Source: a virus
Lineage: Duplodnaviria > Caudoviricetes
IMG/VR virus record: IMGVR_UViG_3300034520_000068
Span: 1,732-65,731 of that record
Direction: 5' to 3' (one strand)
DNA length: 64,000 nucleotides
Under the pieces are notes generated by a model that had not been told where the DNA came from, ran no database searches, and worked only from the letters and a program-made list of their open reading frames with translations. Of the stretch, positions 32,742 to 37,829 are shown one piece after another (positions within the stretch are counted from its first letter, which is position 1; every line of letters starts with the position of its first letter). The position numbers and the translations under genes were made by a program.

Positions 32742-32912
32742 GTGAAGGGGGATATATGGCTCAGTTGTATTCAATGTGGTGTCGGATTCTTGTTTTCCGT
32801 CGGAGAGCAGAAATATTACAAAATACATGGGTTTGAGGAACCGAAGCGATGCCCGGCTTGTCGGAAAAAGAAAAGGAGGCTTAACTGTGGACCCGATATT
32901 AATGGCGGTTGA
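32742..32912 (+). CDS. Zinc-ribbon domain protein (not in ORF track)
   Basis: CIQCG..F.FS.GEQ.YY...GF.EPKRCP.CR. Confidence 0.7.
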   Translation: MKGDIWLSCIQCGVGFLFSVGEQKYYKIHGFEEPKRCPACRKKKRRLNCGPDINGG

Positions 32913-33258
32913 ACATCAAAAATTATACAGCAAAATCCCGTCTTTTCAATGCAAGCCCGGATGTACCGATTGTTGTGGTCCGGTGCCCTTCTCAAAATGG
33001 GAATGGGACCGGATAGCGGATAAAAGAAAACCGACGGAGGAACAGGAGAAAATCCTTATCTGCCCGTATGCCGTCGGTGGCAAATGCGAGATATATGACA
33101 AACGACCGCTTATATGCCGGTTGTTTGGTGCGGTGGATGACCCCTTAATGACCTGCCCTCACGGATGTGGGCCGAAGAAGAAGCTGACAAAGGCACAGGG
33201 AGCGGAAATCAGGGCGGAATATATCGAACTGATGAAAAAATGTGCGGAGGCAAAATAA
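32887..33258 (+). CDS. YkgJ-family Cys-cluster protein
   Basis: C..GC..CC, CPY....C.IY..RPLICR.FG. Confidence 0.8.
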   Translation: MDPILMAVEHQKLYSKIPSFQCKPGCTDCCGPVPFSKWEWDRIADKRKPTEEQEKILICPYAVGGKCEIYDKRPLICRLFGAVDDPLMTCPHGCGPKKKLTKAQGAEIRAEYIELMKKCAEAK

Positions 33259-33260
33259 GT

Positions 33261-33452
33261 ATGAGCACACAAAATAATTCAAGCGGCGGAATTGGTTTTA
33301 CAGGATTGTTATCGATTGCCTTTATCGTTTTAAAACTATGTGGCGTTATAAAATGGTCGTGGTTTTGGGTTTTGTCACCGCTATGGATTCCGTTGGCCTT
33401 TGTAACAATTATCGCAATCATTATGGTATTGCTAGAAGAAGGAGGTATGTAA
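33261..33452 (+). CDS. Small membrane protein
   Basis: GGIGF.GLL.I.FIVLKL.GVI.WSW.WVLSPLWI. Confidence 0.75.
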   Translation: MSTQNNSSGGIGFTGLLSIAFIVLKLCGVIKWSWFWVLSPLWIPLAFVTIIAIIMVLLEEGGM

Positions 33453-33456
33453 ATTT

Positions 33457-33732
33457 ATGGACGGCATTTGGATACGGACGCAAGACAGAAAAGGCTTAAT
33501 ATATGCCCAAAGAATCGCTATTGAATCCTTCAAAGAATGGAAAAGCGAGGAATTCAAATATCGGATTGTCAACCAAGTCTTATATCAAGATGTAGCAAAC
33601 GATTATGACCTGCTTGGCGTATACGATACGGAGGAACGAGCAATAGAAGTTTTAGATTCGATACAGAACATAATAATGGCACATATTCTGGGAGATATGA
33701 TAAATCCAGTTTTTGAAATGCCTAAAGCGTGA
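33457..33732 (+). CDS. Hypothetical phage protein
   Basis: WIRTQD..., LG.Y.TEERA.EVLD.I, FEMP. Confidence 0.7.
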   Translation: MDGIWIRTQDRKGLIYAQRIAIESFKEWKSEEFKYRIVNQVLYQDVANDYDLLGVYDTEERAIEVLDSIQNIIMAHILGDMINPVFEMPKA

Positions 33733-33770
33733 ATTGATGCCTTTTAAAAAAACAAAAGGAGGCAAACCAT

Positions 33771-34082
33771 ATGATTCTGAAAGATATATTTGAAGTCCAG
33801 AAAAATCCGGAACTGAAAGCGGAATATGAAAAAACTTACAATGCGCTAAAGGAAAGATTCCCGCTAACTAAAATAGGCTTATTTGATTTAAAAGCTATCT
33901 TTGACAAATGCGAGGATGAACCTGGATATGCACATACAAAATATACCGGCAAAATCAAAGATTATATTGAAATTACTGAGCTGGAACTATCGATGATTTG
34001 TGACAATGGATATATGCATTTTGGCGGCAAAAGCGTAATAAGGCCGGATAAGACGTTTGAGGTTGTGATTTATACGGATTAA
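33771..34082 (+). CDS. Hypothetical protein
   Basis: GGAGG RBS, 103 aa. Confidence 0.65.
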   Translation: MILKDIFEVQKNPELKAEYEKTYNALKERFPLTKIGLFDLKAIFDKCEDEPGYAHTKYTGKIKDYIEITELELSMICDNGYMHFGGKSVIRPDKTFEVVIYTD

Positions 34083-34155
34083 GACGAAAAATATGTTTTA
34101 TCTATATAATCAGGCAATGCAATCAATAACCGAATAAAAAAAGGAGGCAAAACAG

Positions 34156-34437
34156 ATGACCAGTTTTGATGAGATTTTGACAAGAGAATTAGAGTGGAAA
34201 ATCAGAAGCAAAGTCCAACAGGATTTTAATGAGCTTATTGAGGCTTATCGTAAATTTATCCACAAATATGGCATGAATGGAACTGTAGCTGATTTTGAAA
34301 AGATAGAAGAATATACCCTAAAAAGCCTTCCCAAAAGAAACTTTGAAATGTTTCCCGAACTTGAAGAATATTTATTCAAGCAGGAAAGCCAAAAACTTAT
34401 TGATTCTCTGATGAAGAATGGGGAGGCGGGAAAGTAA
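34156..34437 (+). CDS. Hypothetical protein
   Basis: GGAGG RBS; stop overlaps start of next gene. Confidence 0.65.
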   Translation: MTSFDEILTRELEWKIRSKVQQDFNELIEAYRKFIHKYGMNGTVADFEKIEEYTLKSLPKRNFEMFPELEEYLFKQESQKLIDSLMKNGEAGK

Positions 34438-35075
34438 TGGCTAATAACGCTAAAGCATCAGAGCAAATAATTGTTATTCCTGCAATAAATATTAAAAAGT
34501 TTCAAATTACATTAGTTGGCGATAGTCCTCTAATAGTCCATAGATTTGACGAAAAATCAAAAAAACAGATTTTTGATAAACAGACGCAAAAAGCAAAATC
34601 GGGGAAAGAGCCAAAAATTCCAATGCGAGATTTTATTGAAAGTCTTTATTGGTTATCTGGCAAACCAAAAGAATATACAGAAGAAGCTTTTGAGCAGGCT
34701 ATTAAAGAAGGGGCAAGATTCGGATTTCCTGCGATTGCATTTAAGGCATCGGCAGTATCGGCTGGATATAGAGCAGGAGTAACTAAGGACAAGGTAACAA
34801 GCAATGGAGCGTTTCATATTGACGGTGAATTTGTTGAAATTAATGGTATTCCTCAAATGCGTGAAGATATGGTTCGCATTGGCATGGGGACGGCAGACAT
34901 TCGCTATCGTGGCGAGTTTAAGGAGTGGGAAGCTACATTCACAGTAAAATACAATGCAAGTGTTTTCAGTGCAGAGCAAATTATTAATCTTTTTAACCTT
35001 GGCGGTTTCGCTTGCGGCATTGGTGAATGGCGACCAGAAAAAGGCGGTAGTTATGGAATGTATCATGTGAAATAA
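34437..35075 (+). CDS. RAMP/Cas7-like RNA-binding protein (putative effector of GGY-NN array)
   Basis: ITLVGDSPLIVH first strand, FPAIAFKAS, R..EF..W, and C-terminal Gly-rich loop GGFACGIGEWRPEKGGSYGMYHV. Fold is inferred. Confidence 0.65.
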   Translation: MANNAKASEQIIVIPAINIKKFQITLVGDSPLIVHRFDEKSKKQIFDKQTQKAKSGKEPKIPMRDFIESLYWLSGKPKEYTEEAFEQAIKEGARFGFPAIAFKASAVSAGYRAGVTKDKVTSNGAFHIDGEFVEINGIPQMREDMVRIGMGTADIRYRGEFKEWEATFTVKYNASVFSAEQIINLFNLGGFACGIGEWRPEKGGSYGMYHVK

Positions 35076-35079
35076 ATTT

Positions 35080-35280
35080 GACAAGGCAGGCATGGTGAGG
35101 CCGGTCCAGGTTAGGCAAGGTGAGGCGCAGTAGGGCGAGGTTGGGCAGGGCAGGCAAGGCCAGTTGTGGTAGGCGGGGTGATGTTGGGTTAGGTTCGGTA
35201 TGGCAGGGCAGGCGAGGCAAGGCCTGGTATGGCCGGGCATGGCACGGCCGGGCATGGCACGGCAAGGCAGGGCATGGCAA
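35080..35280 (+). repeat. GGY-NN pentamer array, candidate guide ncRNA
   Basis: About 37 pentamers with constant GGC/GGT and variable dinucleotide, broken by GGCA/GGTA tetramers; lies between a stop codon and the next RBS. Confidence 0.9.
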
Positions 35281-35305
35281 GCATAAAAAAAGGAGGTGTA
35301 TATCA

Positions 35306-35782
35306 TTGATTTACAAATGGAAACAAAACCGTTTTCCCGTAGATGCGCAAACAGCAGGAAAAGAATTGGAACGAATTCAGAGCAAATATAACGGGATTTT
35401 GCCATCAGCAGTCGTGGAAGAATCCAGACCAGAGGAAGCAGTATTACATAATTGTTTTAACTGGAATGATGCAGATGCAGCGGGAAAATACAGGGAAATA
35501 CAGGCGAAAGAGATTATAAGGAATATTGTAGTCGTCAAAGTAGATGAAGTTGAAAAGGATATCGTACCTGTAAGGGCATTTGTCAGTGTAGTAAATGAGG
35601 ATGAAGAAAGACCAAAATATATTTCTATCAATAAAGCTATGTCAGAACCAGATTATCAAGAACAAATATTGCAGACCGCACTTAAAGAATTATTGGCTTT
35701 TAAACAAAAATATCAGAGGTTATTACAGTTTAAAAAAGTCTTTGACGCTATAGATGAAGTTCAAGCAGAATTGGCAATGTAA
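35306..35782 (+). CDS. Hypothetical protein, partner of RAMP-like gene
   Basis: AGGAGG RBS, TTG start; P..VVE.SR.....LH..F.W.D..AA..YR..QA..IIR.I motif. Confidence 0.75.
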   Translation: MIYKWKQNRFPVDAQTAGKELERIQSKYNGILPSAVVEESRPEEAVLHNCFNWNDADAAGKYREIQAKEIIRNIVVVKVDEVEKDIVPVRAFVSVVNEDEERPKYISINKAMSEPDYQEQILQTALKELLAFKQKYQRLLQFKKVFDAIDEVQAELAM

Positions 35783-35822
35783 ATGATTTAAAAAGGTAAA
35801 GCAGGAGGCGAAAAAGCGAAAA

Positions 35823-37829
35823 ATGGATATAAAACTAAATTGGTTAAAGCTCAAAAATTTCAAGGGAATTAAGGATTTTACCCTAAAAATTGACGGCAGA
35901 AATGCCAATGTGTATGCGGACAATGGCGTTGGAAAGACCACCCTTGCCGATTCTTTCCTTTGGCTACTTTTCAACAAAGACAGTACCGACCGCACATCAT
36001 TCAAAGTCAAACCTCAAGACGAATACGGTAACGACATTCACCACCTGCAAACCGAAGTCGAAGCCGAACTTTCGGTTGACGGCAAATCGCTAAAACTTCG
36101 CAAGATGTTGGAAGAAAAATGGACGAAGAAGAGGGGAAGTGCCGAAGCCGAACTTACCGGCAACACCATTTCCTACTGGTGGGATGACGTGCCAGTAAAG
36201 GAGAGCGAATACAAGCAGCGCATAAATGAACTCATCAACGAAGGCATATTTCGCATGATTACCAATCCCATGTATTTTAACACCCGTCTGTCATGGCAGG
36301 ACCGGCGCAAGATATTGCTTGAGATGTGCGGAGATATGTCAGACGAGCAGGTCATTGCGTCGGATGCCAGATTATCAAAACTGACGGAGATTCTTCAGGG
36401 TAAAACAATCGAGGAATACAAGAAAATACTTGCCGAGAGAATTAAGCGGCTGGAAAAAGAAAGGGCCGACATTCCACCCCGGATTGATGAACTTACTCTT
36501 TCGCTACCACAGGAGAATACGGATTATTCGGCGGTGGAAGCGGAATTAAAACAGTATAAGAATGAACTTGAAGCCATTGAATTAGGGCTTACAGATGCGT
36601 CAATAATTGCTACAGAATTCAGCAAAAAACAGCAAAAATTATTGCAGTTAAAAAATAAGCTGGTGGATATAAAAGCCAGACTCGATGCCGAAGCCGGAGC
36701 GGATAGAAAGAAGCTTGTTGATGAGAAATCGGCCCTAACGTCACACAAATATCTGCTTGAAACAAGCATAAATGATTTAGAAGCAAATATCGCACGTATA
36801 CAAGCAGGTATAAAAAACAATATGGATTTGCGTGCAAAACTGCTGGATGAATGGAGAGCACTTACGCAAGAAAGGTCCAATATCCTTGCACAAGAATTCA
36901 CAGAACCGAAGGAAAATGAATTTATTTGCCCGACATGCGGTCAGAAGCTCCCTGAAGAAGCAAAAGAGAAGGAAATTGAAAAAATGCGTGCGAGTTTTGA
37001 GGCTAATAAAAATTCTCAATTGATTATAGTTGACGGAAAACTTAAGAACAATAAAATTAATGGCCTTTCAGTAAAGGAAAGCATAGAACTTGCACAATCT
37101 CAAATACAAAAAATGCAATGGGAGCTTGAAGCACGCAAAAAAGAATATGAGGAAGTTATTATCAGGCTTTCAGAAATCGACATAGAACTTGCTAAACCTA
37201 TGCAAGAACCGGACTACAACAGCGATGAAGAATACAACCGCTTGCAGAAGCAGATTGAGGTATTGGAGGCCGGAATTTCACAGCCGGTAGAGGATAAAAC
37301 CAGTGCATTATTGCAACGCAAGCGGGAGATTCAGAGCAAGATTGATGGGTGCAATCGAATCCTGAACAATAGAACGGTAGCCGCAAACACAAAGAAGCGC
37401 ATAGAAGAACTCAAAGCCGAAGAAAAACGGCTTGCACAGCAGGTTGTAGAGTTAGAAGGGCATAAATACCTATGTGAGCAATTCACCGTAGCTAAAGTGA
37501 ATTTGCTTGAGGACAAGATAAACAGCCGTTTCAAGTATGTCAAGTTTAAATTGTTTGAAATGCAACTAAATGGCGGCATAGCGGAAACATGCCAAGCACT
37601 GGTCAATACTAATGGCGTATATGTACCGTTTGATGATGCGAACCATGCGGGGAAGATTAATGCCGGAATCGACATTATCAATTCGCTATGCAGTTACTAC
37701 AACGTCACAGCCCCAATCTTTATAGACTTCCGTGAGAGTGTTAGCAGGATAATTGAAACCAATAGCCAGGTTATAAACCTTGTAAAGAGCGAGCCGGATA
37801 AAACATTGCGGGTGGTGTTGGAAGAATGA
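35823..37829 (+). CDS. SMC/SbcC-like coiled-coil ATPase
   Basis: LKNFKGI, NGVGKTT, central CPTCGQ hook, PIFID..ES. Confidence 0.88.
   Translation: MDIKLNWLKLKNFKGIKDFTLKIDGRNANVYADNGVGKTTLADSFLWLLFNKDSTDRTSFKVKPQDEYGNDIHHLQTEVEAELSVDGKSLKLRKMLEEKWTKKRGSAEAELTGNTISYWWDDVPVKESEYKQRINELINEGIFRMITNPMYFNTRLSWQDRRKILLEMCGDMSDEQVIASDARLSKLTEILQGKTIEEYKKILAERIKRLEKERADIPPRIDELTLSLPQENTDYSAVEAELKQYKNELEAIELGLTDASIIATEFSKKQQKLLQLKNKLVDIKARLDAEAGADRKKLVDEKSALTSHKYLLETSINDLEANIARIQAGIKNNMDLRAKLLDEWRALTQERSNILAQEFTEPKENEFICPTCGQKLPEEAKEKEIEKMRASFEANKNSQLIIVDGKLKNNKINGLSVKESIELAQSQIQKMQWELEARKKEYEEVIIRLSEIDIELAKPMQEPDYNSDEEYNRLQKQIEVLEAGISQPVEDKTSALLQRKREIQSKIDGCNRILNNRTVAANTKKRIEELKAEEKRLAQQVVELEGHKYLCEQFTVAKVNLLEDKINSRFKYVKFKLFEMQLNGGIAETCQALVNTNGVYVPFDDANHAGKINAGIDIINSLCSYYNVTAPIFIDFRESVSRIIETNSQVINLVKSEPDKTLRVVLEE

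What the first reader, a model, noticed from the sequence alone, without database searches (positions are those of the whole stretch)
35080..35280. The array parses as a punctuated dinucleotide code with about three units
Seen: GGCA tetramers at 35085, 35149 and 35207 break the 5-nt phase. Unit 1 NN = AT GA CG CA TA AA GA GC AG GA TG AG. Unit 2 = AA CA GT, a GGTA phase slip, then GG GA TG TA TC AT AG. Unit 3 = GA AA CT AT CG AT AC CG AT AC AA AG AT AA, with an exact 15-nt duplication (35231-35260). The triplet is held nearly constant while NN is diverse, unlike a decaying microsatellite. Units 1 and 2 both end in GGCAG-GGCA, a possible processing mark. Inference: NN strings specify a target read contiguously or with a skipped base (NN.NN.NN), which could ignore codon wobble. 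Alternatives: a TRAP-like triplet+2 nt protein-binding scaffold, or a G-quadruplex.
Basis: partly seen in the sequence, partly recalled or inferred. Interest (0 to 1): 0.85.

Follow-up and report, generated by a model that had tools for sequence, protein, structure and literature searches.

The report
Phage VIPR guide-RNA array
The five-base repeat tract is the guide-RNA array of a phage VIPR system, a CRISPR-like weapon against rival phages first described in 2026, so it is a clear new example of a known kind.

Summary
Window 35085-35284 (+) holds about 40 GGY-NN pentamers, cut into three units by GGCA four-base steps.

It is the vrRNA array of a VIPR system (Viral Interference Programmable Repeat; bioRxiv 10.64898/2026.04.26.720920 and .720927).
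- The gene just upstream (34437-35075) is a Vipr protein, a minimal Cas7-like RAMP. Its family profile hits the solved SUSP1 Vipr (PDB 36pp) at E=1.6e-13, and thumb Arg and G-loop Trp-Arg align.
- The gene just downstream (35306-35782) is a conserved accessory, found beside vipr in 22 of 22 related loci.
- The same trio occurs in 20 IMG/VR phages and in cluster F mycobacteriophages.
- GG-Y is fixed and NN is near-random.
- Sister phages with 94-99% identical vipr carry mostly unrelated NN strings.
- Phase breaks are almost always -1 and GGCA (90 of 104). I read this as the "staggered" array of that paper's fig. S18 legend.

It rests here on family membership only. I found no convincing natural target for these guides, and no RNA data exist.

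The scan already holds 23 notes with the VIPR search words on other DNA. Verdict: a new member of a known kind, of modest interest.

The parts
34437..35075 (+). vipr gene: 212-aa Vipr protein (minimal Cas7-like RAMP), same strand as the array and directly upstream of it
   Evidence: Matches phrog_4652 at E=4e-24; no Pfam family. A 55-sequence family profile hits PDB 36pp 'SUSP1 Vipr protein' at E=1.6e-13; the single sequence hits at E=1.7e-5. R158, E197, W198 and R199 align to SUSP1 R138, D177, W178 and R179. AlphaFold model has pLDDT 95. Foldseek top hits are Csm3/Cas7 backbone subunits, E about 1e-4, TM 0.45-0.52.
35085..35088 (+). Leading GGCA mark (four-base step) that opens the array 10 nt after the vipr stop codon
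   Evidence: In most of the 17 related loci printed the array likewise opens with a GGCAGG(C/T) mark shortly after the vipr stop.
35089..35148 (+). vrRNA unit 1: 12 GGY-NN pentamers, two with a degenerate triplet (35104, 35129)
   Evidence: Parsed. Bounded by GGCA marks at 35085 and 35149.
35149..35152 (+). GGCA mark between units 1 and 2 (-1 phase step; read as a 1-nt overlap of two pentamer registers)
   Evidence: GGCA accounts for 90 of 104 four-base steps in 32 sources. 89 of 101 mark-to-mark distances of 100 nt or less in 23 sources equal 4+5n.
35153..35206 (+). vrRNA unit 2: 3 pentamers, an internal GGTA four-base step at 35168, then 7 pentamers. Probably a damaged or split guide.
   Evidence: GGTA is the only such step among 104 four-base steps.
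35207..35210 (+). GGCA mark between units 2 and 3
35211..35275 (+). vrRNA unit 3: 13 perfect GGY-NN pentamers, including an exact 15-nt tandem duplication (35231-35260)
   Evidence: (TRF period 15).
35276..35284 (+). Terminal mark, one base off the GGCAGGC-type consensus, closing the array
   Evidence: Relatives end their arrays with a GGCAGGC-type mark 10-25 nt before the accessory gene's ribosome-binding site.
35290..35296 (+). Ribosome-binding site (AAGGAGG) of the accessory gene, abutting the array's end
   Evidence: It lies 9 nt before the in-frame TTG at 35306.
35306..35782 (+). vap-like accessory gene: 158 aa, TTG start, no known fold or family
   Evidence: Matches phrog_15946 at E=5e-19. 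A homolog lies downstream of vipr in 22 of 22 related loci. AlphaFold model has pLDDT 91. No PDB match by fold (best E=1.5) or by sequence. ESM Atlas neighbours are viral hypothetical proteins. The mechanical 220-aa ORF 35120-35782 runs through the array and is an artefact.

Best explanation
The tract is the guide-RNA (vrRNA) array of a phage VIPR system, made of vipr (34437-35075), three vrRNA units (35085-35284) and a vap-like accessory gene (35306-35782). All lie on one strand in the early operon.

By homology to the tested type II systems, the mechanism is as follows.
1. The array is transcribed.
2. One Vipr protomer binds each pentamer. The two G's and the pyrimidine are flipped into protein pockets, and the NN bases are presented.
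3. The filament pairs NN with double-stranded DNA that carries the same dinucleotides separated by one skipped base.
4. An R-loop triplex forms and silences transcription of a competing phage, satellite or prophage.

This locus has the 'staggered' array form. There is no structured 3' tail. Guides of mostly 9-12 pentamers are delimited by a GGCA step that shifts the register by -1.

Shown here: family membership, array anatomy, conserved punctuation, NN turnover.
Inferred: transcription and processing, the one-base-skip code for this subfamily, and the biological target.
For: PROTEIN
- The family profile hits solved SUSP1 Vipr at E=1.6e-13 over residues 59-210.
- Thumb Arg and G-loop (D/E)-W-R align to the residues that the structure paper reports as holding G1 and G2: R138, D177, W178, R179.
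- R158 and R199 are invariant in 55 of 55 family members.
- The model's fold matches Cas7/Csm3.

ARRAY
- The repeat is GGY-NN with period 5.
- In 83 in-register units from 23 sources: position 1 G 94%, position 2 G 83%, position 3 C/T 96%; positions 4 and 5 have 1.84 and 1.96 bits of entropy. Unit length is 8-16 pentamers, mode 10. The paper reports 9-16 repeats.

LINKAGE
- Strand-matched arrays lie beside vipr in 18 of 20 IMG/VR loci and 2 of 2 mycobacteriophage loci at a strict threshold, with none on the opposite strand.
- At a looser threshold, 31 of 32 sources have an array.
- The accessory gene is present in 22 of 22 loci.
- In mycobacteriophages the order is array-vipr-vap, so the link survives rearrangement.

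PROGRAMMABILITY
- Three sister pairs have vipr 94-99% and vap 96-97% identical in DNA, but arrays only 46-76% identical.
- The best NN identity of any guide to any guide in the sister locus is 0.36-0.77.

PUNCTUATION
- Of 1316 tokens, 1211 are five-base, 104 are four-base and 1 is six-base.
- 90 of the 104 four-base steps are GGCA. Random indels would not give this.

OTHER
- There is no self-targeting above shuffled controls, as the paper reports for its own loci.
- The RNA has no excess secondary structure (z=-0.75), as expected for a protein-bound single strand.
Against: - No natural target was found (details under Tried and rejected). The single hit, L040, matches 23 of 24 NN. It lies in an OmpL-like porin gene of a 60-66% GC contig, and the skipped base falls on codon position 2. 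I read it as chance.
- The one-base-skip rule was validated by the authors only for type II, and was used by them for types III and V. It is untested for this subfamily.
- Unit 2 has an internal frame slip and unit 3 a recent duplication, so one or two of the three guides may be decayed.
- The accessory protein matches no known DNA-binding fold.
- The paper's text says sRNA-seq confirmed the ribozyme-interspersed and single-vrRNA forms. It does not say this of staggered arrays.
Confidence: 0.9

Rival explanations
1. The tract is a protein-binding RNA scaffold without a guide function. In a TRAP-like way, Vipr or another protein coats the GGY repeats in the vipr-vap intercistronic region only to regulate translation or stability of the downstream gene. 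NN would be mere spacer.
For: The array's end abuts the accessory gene's ribosome-binding site in the window and in most of the 17 loci printed. No target was found for the window's guides.
Against: Spacers under no selection would not turn over far faster than the flanking genes while GGY stays fixed. In mycobacteriophages the array lies upstream of vipr, not before vap. Some loci carry extra arrays elsewhere. Homologous systems are shown experimentally to be NN-programmed.
Confidence: 0.05
2. The tract is a G-rich DNA or RNA structure element. GG every 5 nt would form two-tier G-quadruplexes, or a G-rich non-template strand would promote an R-loop, for instance as a replication origin in the recombination/replication module.
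For: G makes up 96 of 215 bases and GG recurs every 5 nt on the non-template strand. An SbcC-like recombination gene follows.
Against: This does not explain the pyrimidine fixed at position 3, the GGCA punctuation at 4+5n spacing, or the strict strand-matched linkage to a RAMP protein across phyla.
Confidence: 0.02
3. The tract is a decaying pentanucleotide microsatellite, or it is coding sequence. The mechanical ORF 35120-35782 and the annotated Donkeykong gene 48 both read through such arrays.
For: TRF reports period 5 and 15 repeats. An ORF caller and a GenBank annotation both place a CDS over arrays.
Against: A decaying microsatellite would lose all positions alike and would gain +1 as often as -1 indels. 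Instead GG-Y is kept at 83-96% and steps are 104 to 1 in favour of -1. The real start of the downstream gene is the TTG at 35306, behind a strong ribosome-binding site. The downstream protein's homologs begin at the residue equivalent to 35306.
Confidence: 0.01

Closest known systems
VIPR systems with 'staggered' vrRNA arrays (bioRxiv 10.64898/2026.04.26.720920, Results text and fig. S18 legend)
   Same: The locus has a Vipr RAMP protein, GGY/NN pentamer guides and an adjacent accessory gene, and it is phage-borne. Guides follow one another without a tail. [quoted passage not shown]
   Different: I could not see the figure or the supplementary tables, so the equation of GGCA steps with the paper's staggered boundaries is my reading of a legend. 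The VIPR type (I-VII) and the vap class of this locus could not be assigned. The paper's text does not list staggered arrays among the forms confirmed by sRNA-seq.
Type II VIPR of Escherichia phage SUSP1 (Vipr structure PDB 36pp) and of a Pseudomonas fulva prophage
   Same: The protein is homologous, with the G-binding thumb Arg and the G-loop (D/E)-W-R conserved. Guides have the same GGY/NN repeat, in a similar number per guide. It is also a two-gene locus.
   Different: The relationship is distant: the single sequence reaches only E=1.7e-5 over the last 56 residues. The SUSP1 clade's vrRNAs carry a conserved 3' tail of about 40 nt that includes a pseudoknot. Here only 21 nt separate the last mark from the next gene's start, and the tract shows no excess structure. 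The accessory protein shows no detectable winged-helix or HTH match.
Class 1 CRISPR Cas7 (Csm3/Cmr4/Cas7) backbone filaments on crRNA
   Same: The fold is the same RAMP fold (Foldseek top hits). One protomer binds per RNA repeat unit, and a thumb breaks guide-target pairing periodically.
   Different: There is no CRISPR repeat-spacer array, no cas1/cas2, no other Cas subunits and no Cas6-type hairpin handle. The period is 5 nt with three bases sequestered, not 6 nt with one flipped. The guide is written discontinuously.
TRAP (trp RNA-binding attenuation protein) binding to (G/U)AG repeats
   Same: A fixed triplet plus a 2-3 nt spacer is repeated about 11 times, and each triplet is bound by one protein subunit.
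   Different: The proteins are unrelated (an 11-mer ring against a RAMP helical filament). TRAP spacers carry no information, whereas here the spacers are the hypervariable, information-bearing part.

Membership tests
VIPR system | Vipr protein: a minimal single-RRM RAMP with a G-loop and thumb, homologous to characterised Vipr | tested here: met
   Profile against PDB 36pp (SUSP1 Vipr) gives E=1.6e-13. R158/E197/W198/R199 align to R138/D177/W178/R179. AlphaFold pLDDT is 95 and Foldseek top hits are Cas7/Csm3.
VIPR system | vrRNA of tandem GGY/NN pentamers, 9-16 per guide, next to vipr on the same strand | tested here: met
   Units have 12, 3+7 and 13 pentamers at 35089-35275. Relatives have 8-16, mode 10. 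Arrays occur only on the vipr strand.
VIPR system | GGY conserved while NN is hypervariable among relatives | tested here: met
   Positional composition and entropy were measured in 83 units. Sister pairs have 94-99% identical vipr, but best NN identity between their guides is 0.36-0.77.
VIPR system | An adjacent vipr-accessory (vap) gene | tested here: met
   A homolog of the 158-aa downstream protein lies beside vipr in 22 of 22 loci. Which of vap1-6 it is could not be tested, because the paper's supplementary data are closed.
VIPR system | Encoded mainly by phages or proviruses | tested here: met
   The window is a 65.7-kb IMG/VR virus record. Neighbours match PHROG families. Relatives lie in IMG/VR contigs and in mycobacteriophages.
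VIPR system | vrRNAs are expressed as discrete small RNAs and co-purify with Vipr | not testable with these tools
   No listed sequencing run that holds this DNA is on record as RNA.
VIPR system | NN strings match natural targets under the one-base-skip rule better than under 0, 2 or 3 skips | tested here: inconclusive
   In DNA held locally, all four skip rules equal shuffled controls. There were 0 exact hits in IMG/VR for 6 window-derived patterns and 1 Quico pattern. One likely chance hit came from JGI metagenomes. There were 0 hits with up to 3 mismatches in 406 genomes.
VIPR type II (SUSP1 / P. fulva clade) | A conserved structured 3' tail (about 40 nt in the SUSP1 clade, with a pseudoknot) after each repeat tract | tested here: not met
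   Units follow one another separated only by GGCA. Only 21 nt lie between the terminal mark and the next start codon. The fold z-score is -0.75 and there is no Rfam match.
VIPR 'staggered array' architecture | Successive vrRNAs overlap by 1 nt, so the end of one marks the start of the next | tested here: met
   Steps are -1 in 104 of 105 phase breaks and GGCA in 90 of those 104. 89 of 101 mark spacings of 100 nt or less equal 4+5n. The actual RNA ends were not tested.
CRISPR-Cas (Class 1) | A repeat-spacer array with a Cas6-type handle, multi-subunit effector genes and an adaptation module | tested here: not met
   There is no long direct repeat family and no CRISPR-like array in 33000-37000. 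The neighbours are an SbcC-like ATPase and small phage ORFs. PADLOC finds nothing for either protein.

The most novel reading that the evidence does not exclude
In this tail-less subfamily the guide array may punctuate itself. The conserved GGCA step leaves only one base between a pyrimidine and the next GG, so it cannot be accommodated by two adjacent Vipr protomers. It would therefore break the filament register. On this reading the protein lattice itself, not a folded RNA handle or a ribozyme, measures each guide and exposes the junction for cleavage. Because the last mark abuts the accessory gene's ribosome-binding site, filament occupancy could also gate vap translation. That would be a guide-definition mechanism unlike those of CRISPR or of type II VIPR.
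Probability: 0.3. Interest if true: 0.45.

Novelty: new member of a known kind. Interest (0 to 1): 0.3.

Why it matters
VIPR is a months-old discovery: an RNA-guided DNA-binding system with a gapped code, proposed by its authors to predate CRISPR.

This locus adds a clean, compact example from a roughly 41% GC phage whose closest Vipr relatives lie in Firmicutes-type genome bins. It documents four points with numbers:
- The tail-less GGCA-punctuated array form is widespread. The Vipr family has at least 3371 clusters at 50% identity.
- The punctuation is a specific -1 step, not a random slip.
- Guides turn over far faster than the genes beside them.
- The same subfamily sits in well-studied cluster F mycobacteriophages, where one record annotates a protein-coding gene over much of the array. 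Those phages offer a tractable laboratory system for testing staggered arrays.

It does not change the concept, and this scan already holds 23 notes with the VIPR search words on other DNA.

Tried and rejected
1. RFAM. All 4227 families were searched on 34000-36500 at E up to 10, with no match.

2. SEQUENCE LIBRARIES. Pfam, NCBIfam and PADLOC gave nothing meaningful for the two proteins.

3. LITERATURE. A search for 'mycobacteriophage' plus 'pentanucleotide repeat' returned one microsatellite survey, seen as a listing only and not relevant.

4. EXPRESSION. No RNA holder was listed among the 9 runs that hold the stretch.

5. TARGET SEARCH UNDER THE ONE-BASE-SKIP RULE.
- Local test of the four window-derived guide strings (units 1, 2 and 3, plus the 7-pentamer part of unit 2) at skips 0-3 against the window and held loci: the best scores equal shuffled-order controls, apart from the trivial skip-3 self match.
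- Local test of 63 guides from 24 sources against all other held loci, with arrays masked: the mean best fraction was 0.74-0.75 for every skip, so no signal.
- Exact scans of IMG/VR with unit 1 full, unit 3 full, unit 1 inner ten NN, unit 1 with the two degenerate repeats masked, one Quico unit, unit 3 with the duplicated block removed, and unit 2 with the slipped repeat masked. All gave 0 hits.
- Both unit 3 patterns carried a final NN that I later reassigned to the terminal mark.
- One JGI metagenome scan with masked unit 1 gave 1 hit, L040:9717-9751. I rejected it as chance. A 20-base pattern may well give about one chance hit there; that is my rough estimate, because the collection's size in bases is not given. 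3 of the 4 unconstrained bases match (p about 0.05). The contig is 60-66% GC. The site lies in an OmpL-like porin gene, with skipped bases at codon position 2.
- Unit 1 with up to 3 mismatches: 0 hits in 5 genomes that hold relatives, and 0 in 401 genomes sampled from the class of one of them. This means 'not found in those searched', not 'absent'.

6. ACCESSORY PROTEIN. No fold match, no sequence match, and only unnamed viral clusters in the Atlas.

7. UPSTREAM ORF. The 93-aa ORF 34156-34437, whose stop overlaps the vipr start, has no homolog in the 22 loci. It is not counted as part of the system.

8. SUPPLEMENTS. The type assignment, vap classes, fig. S18 itself and any listing of mycobacteriophage or Firmicutes loci may be there.

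9. NOT USED. Complex prediction was not used. The tool takes no RNA chain, and Vipr self-assembly would pass by likeness to solved structures.

Full report
WHAT IS THERE

Between the stop of a 212-aa ORF (34437-35075, +) and the ribosome-binding site of a 158-aa ORF (TTG at 35306, to 35782, +) lies a 215-nt stretch with 96 G. It reads as GG-pyrimidine-N-N repeated about 40 times.

The periodicity is well beyond chance.
- Base autocorrelation peaks at lags 5, 10 and 15 (0.57, 0.57, 0.55), against 0.17-0.21 at lags 2-3.
- A five-unit GGYNN pattern with up to one mismatch matches 24 times, all on the + strand inside 35089-35278. The mean over 100 dinucleotide-preserving shuffles is 0.03.
- The whole 65.7-kb virus record has no other such tract: 20 forward, 0 reverse and 0 control matches, all in this tract.

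The tract has no Rfam match and no secondary structure beyond its composition (z=-0.75). No promoter-like or terminator-like site hugs it on the + strand. It is therefore most simply part of the same early transcript as its two neighbours.

HOW IT WAS IDENTIFIED

A distant blastn of the region against GenBank phages hit nothing from related phages. It did hit the array itself in three cluster F mycobacteriophages: Donkeykong, Quico and Florinda, genus Cheoctovirus (6 records, RefSeq/GenBank duplicates).

Those phages carry a roughly 250-340-nt tract of GGC-NN pentamers with the same GGCA steps. The gene directly downstream of it (Quico gene 57) is 38% identical to the window's upstream ORF (E=2e-38). 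An array-plus-protein pair that is kept across phyla, in a different gene order, points to a functional unit.

The protein belongs to phrog_4652 and has no Pfam family. The family is very large.
- 7940 of the 8000 candidates scored reach E of 0.001 or better among 90%-identity clusters.
- 3371 clusters at 50% identity reach E of 0.001 or better.

A profile of 55 diverse members hits one solved structure, PDB 36pp 'SUSP1 Vipr protein', at E=1.6e-13. That name led to the literature.

THE KNOWN SYSTEM

VIPR (Viral Interference Programmable Repeat) was described in bioRxiv 10.64898/2026.04.26.720920. I read the abstract, all of Results, Methods sections 20, 26 and 27, and the legend passages. The companion structure paper is 10.64898/2026.04.26.720927, of which I read the abstract and Results part 1 of 2.

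The main points are these.
- Vipr is a minimal RAMP protein.
- vrRNAs hold 9-16 YNNGG repeats. One protomer binds each repeat.
- G1 is read by H17 and D177. G2 is read by R138 and W178. The pyrimidine sits in a pocket of the next protomer that excludes purines (with R179 stacking).
- The NN bases pair with double-stranded DNA while one target base per repeat is skipped, mostly the codon wobble base. An R-loop triplex forms and represses transcription.
- Natural targets are rival phages, satellites and prophages.
- Seven types are described. [quoted passage not shown] The legend says that vrRNAs derive from 1-nt overlapping positions, so that the end of one marks the start of the next.
- By the text, the ribozyme-interspersed and single-vrRNA forms were confirmed by sRNA-seq. 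The text does not say this of the staggered form.

Two later preprints extend the picture.
- 10.64898/2026.10.15.759431 (abstract and outline only) shows that VIPR decides the outcome of phage-satellite competition.
- 10.64898/2026.10.21.760802 (passages only) recovers 99 VIPR-like clusters from 5-nt entropy periodicity.

MEMBERSHIP OF THIS LOCUS

Protein. In the single-sequence alignment to SUSP1 Vipr (E=1.7e-5), R158, E197, W198, R199 and C193 align to R138, D177, W178, R179 and C173. R158 and R199 are invariant in the 55-member alignment. The AlphaFold model (pLDDT 95, pTM 0.87) finds Cas7-type backbone subunits of type III, VII, I and IV CRISPR complexes as its best PDB matches (E about 1e-4, TM 0.45-0.52). 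That fold library predates the Vipr entries.

Array. In 83 in-register units from 23 sources:
- position 1 is G in 94%;
- position 2 is G in 83%;
- position 3 is C or T in 96%;
- positions 4 and 5 carry 1.84 and 1.96 bits;
- units hold 8-16 pentamers, mode 10.

Linkage. A period-5 GG array lies on the vipr strand in 18 of 20 IMG/VR loci and 2 of 2 mycobacteriophage loci at a strict threshold, with none on the other strand. At a looser threshold, 31 of 32 sources have one; the exception is L036.

Accessory gene. A homolog of the downstream 158-aa protein lies beside vipr in 22 of 22 loci. Its model is confident (pLDDT 91). It matches no solved fold (best E=1.5), no PDB sequence and only unnamed viral clusters in the ESM Atlas. 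I call it vap-like and cannot say which of vap1-6 it is.

Programmability. Three sister pairs have vipr 94-99% and vap 96-97% identical at the DNA level. The arrays between them align at only 46-76%. The best NN identity of any guide to any guide of the sister is 0.36-0.77.

THE PUNCTUATION

I tokenised all arrays in 32 sources without assuming a mark. The result was 1211 five-base tokens, 104 four-base tokens and a single six-base token. 90 of the 104 four-base tokens are GGCA. These are followed by GGC (68), GGT (17), GGA (4) or GTC (1).

Of the 101 distances of 100 nt or less between GGCAGG(C/T) marks in 23 sources, 89 equal 4+5n, with a mode of 54. So the step is a specific signal, not slippage.

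Read as two pentamer registers that share one G, it fits the paper's '1 nt overlapping' staggered arrays. This equation rests on a figure legend, because I could not see the figure.

In most of the 17 loci printed, arrays open with a mark just after the vipr stop and close with a mark 10-25 nt before the vap ribosome-binding site. The window's closing mark (35276-35284) has one base changed. Unit 3 is therefore 13 pentamers, not 14.

Unit 2's GGTA step is the only GGTA among the 104. It is probably a mutated mark or a one-base deletion, which would leave a split or dead guide. Unit 3's 15-nt duplication looks recent.

There is no room for the roughly 40-nt tail of the SUSP1-clade (type II) vrRNAs. 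The type II test therefore fails, while the general VIPR tests pass.

TARGETS

This is the weak point.
- Under skips of 0-3, the window-derived guide strings score no better than shuffled-order controls against the window and all held loci. This agrees with the published absence of self-targeting.
- 63 guides from 24 sources show no preference for any skip against the small set of held loci.
- Seven exact one-base-skip scans of IMG/VR gave nothing.
- One JGI metagenome scan gave a single site with 23 of 24 NN. It lies in an OmpL-like porin gene on a 60-66% GC contig, with skipped bases at codon position 2. I read it as chance.
- A search allowing up to 3 mismatches in 406 genomes found nothing.

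The negative result is therefore weak. The two unit 3 patterns were also over-specified by the terminal mark's bases.

VERDICT

The locus is a new member of a known kind: a VIPR system with a staggered, tail-less array. I put 0.9 on that statement.

The biological target, RNA processing at the GGCA steps and the role of the accessory protein remain inferred.

The scan already holds 23 notes with the VIPR search words on other DNA. The 8 shown were each read as VIPR, and three of them name staggered arrays. I reached the identification from the PDB hit before consulting those notes.

Noticed in passing
L009:2842-3228 (Mycobacterium phage Donkeykong, record 36870-37256) and L010:2935-3200 (Quico): Cluster F mycobacteriophages (Cheoctovirus) carry the same VIPR subfamily in the order array-vipr-vap. 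In Donkeykong the CDS annotated as gene 48 'hypothetical protein' covers much of the GGC-NN array (about L009:2857-3200) and overlaps gene 49, so it is probably a spurious ORF. Quico leaves the stretch unannotated. The main text of the VIPR paper does not contain 'Mycobacter'.
   Followed up: partly
window 35120-35782: The mechanical ORF call of 220 aa (GTG start) runs through the repeat array. The real gene starts at the TTG at 35306 behind an AAGGAGG site. Homologs in 16 loci align from that start.
   Followed up: yes
window 35823-37829; L023:743-2587; L024:704-2575: A 668-aa SbcC/Rad50-like AAA ATPase (phrog_77, PF13476) follows the VIPR trio in the window. A 25-26% identical homolog lies just upstream of vipr in two of the 22 loci. 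This could be a loose association or simply the phage recombination module.
   Followed up: no
L023:2623-2914, L024:2606-2927, L026:1702-1786, L015:1529-1588: Some relatives carry a second GGY-NN array upstream of vipr in addition to the downstream one. L026 has about 590 nt of array in all. Array number and size vary widely within this subfamily.
   Followed up: partly
L040:9717-9751: A JGI metagenome contig (60-66% GC) matches 23 of 24 NN of unit 1 under the one-base-skip rule. The site lies inside an OmpL-like porin gene (PF07642), with skipped bases at codon position 2. I judged it a chance match.
   Followed up: yes
L037 (Xanthobacteraceae MAG contig) and L035 (Selenomonadales MAG contig): Vipr homologs 45-54% identical to the window's occur on contigs binned to diderm lineages as well as to Clostridia-type bins. 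The subfamily therefore crosses host phyla (contig binning not checked).
   Followed up: no
window 32776-33258: A 160-aa ORF with a CxxCxxCC putative zinc/iron-chelating domain (PF03692, E=1.7e-7) lies in the same early operon. Its function is unknown.
   Followed up: no
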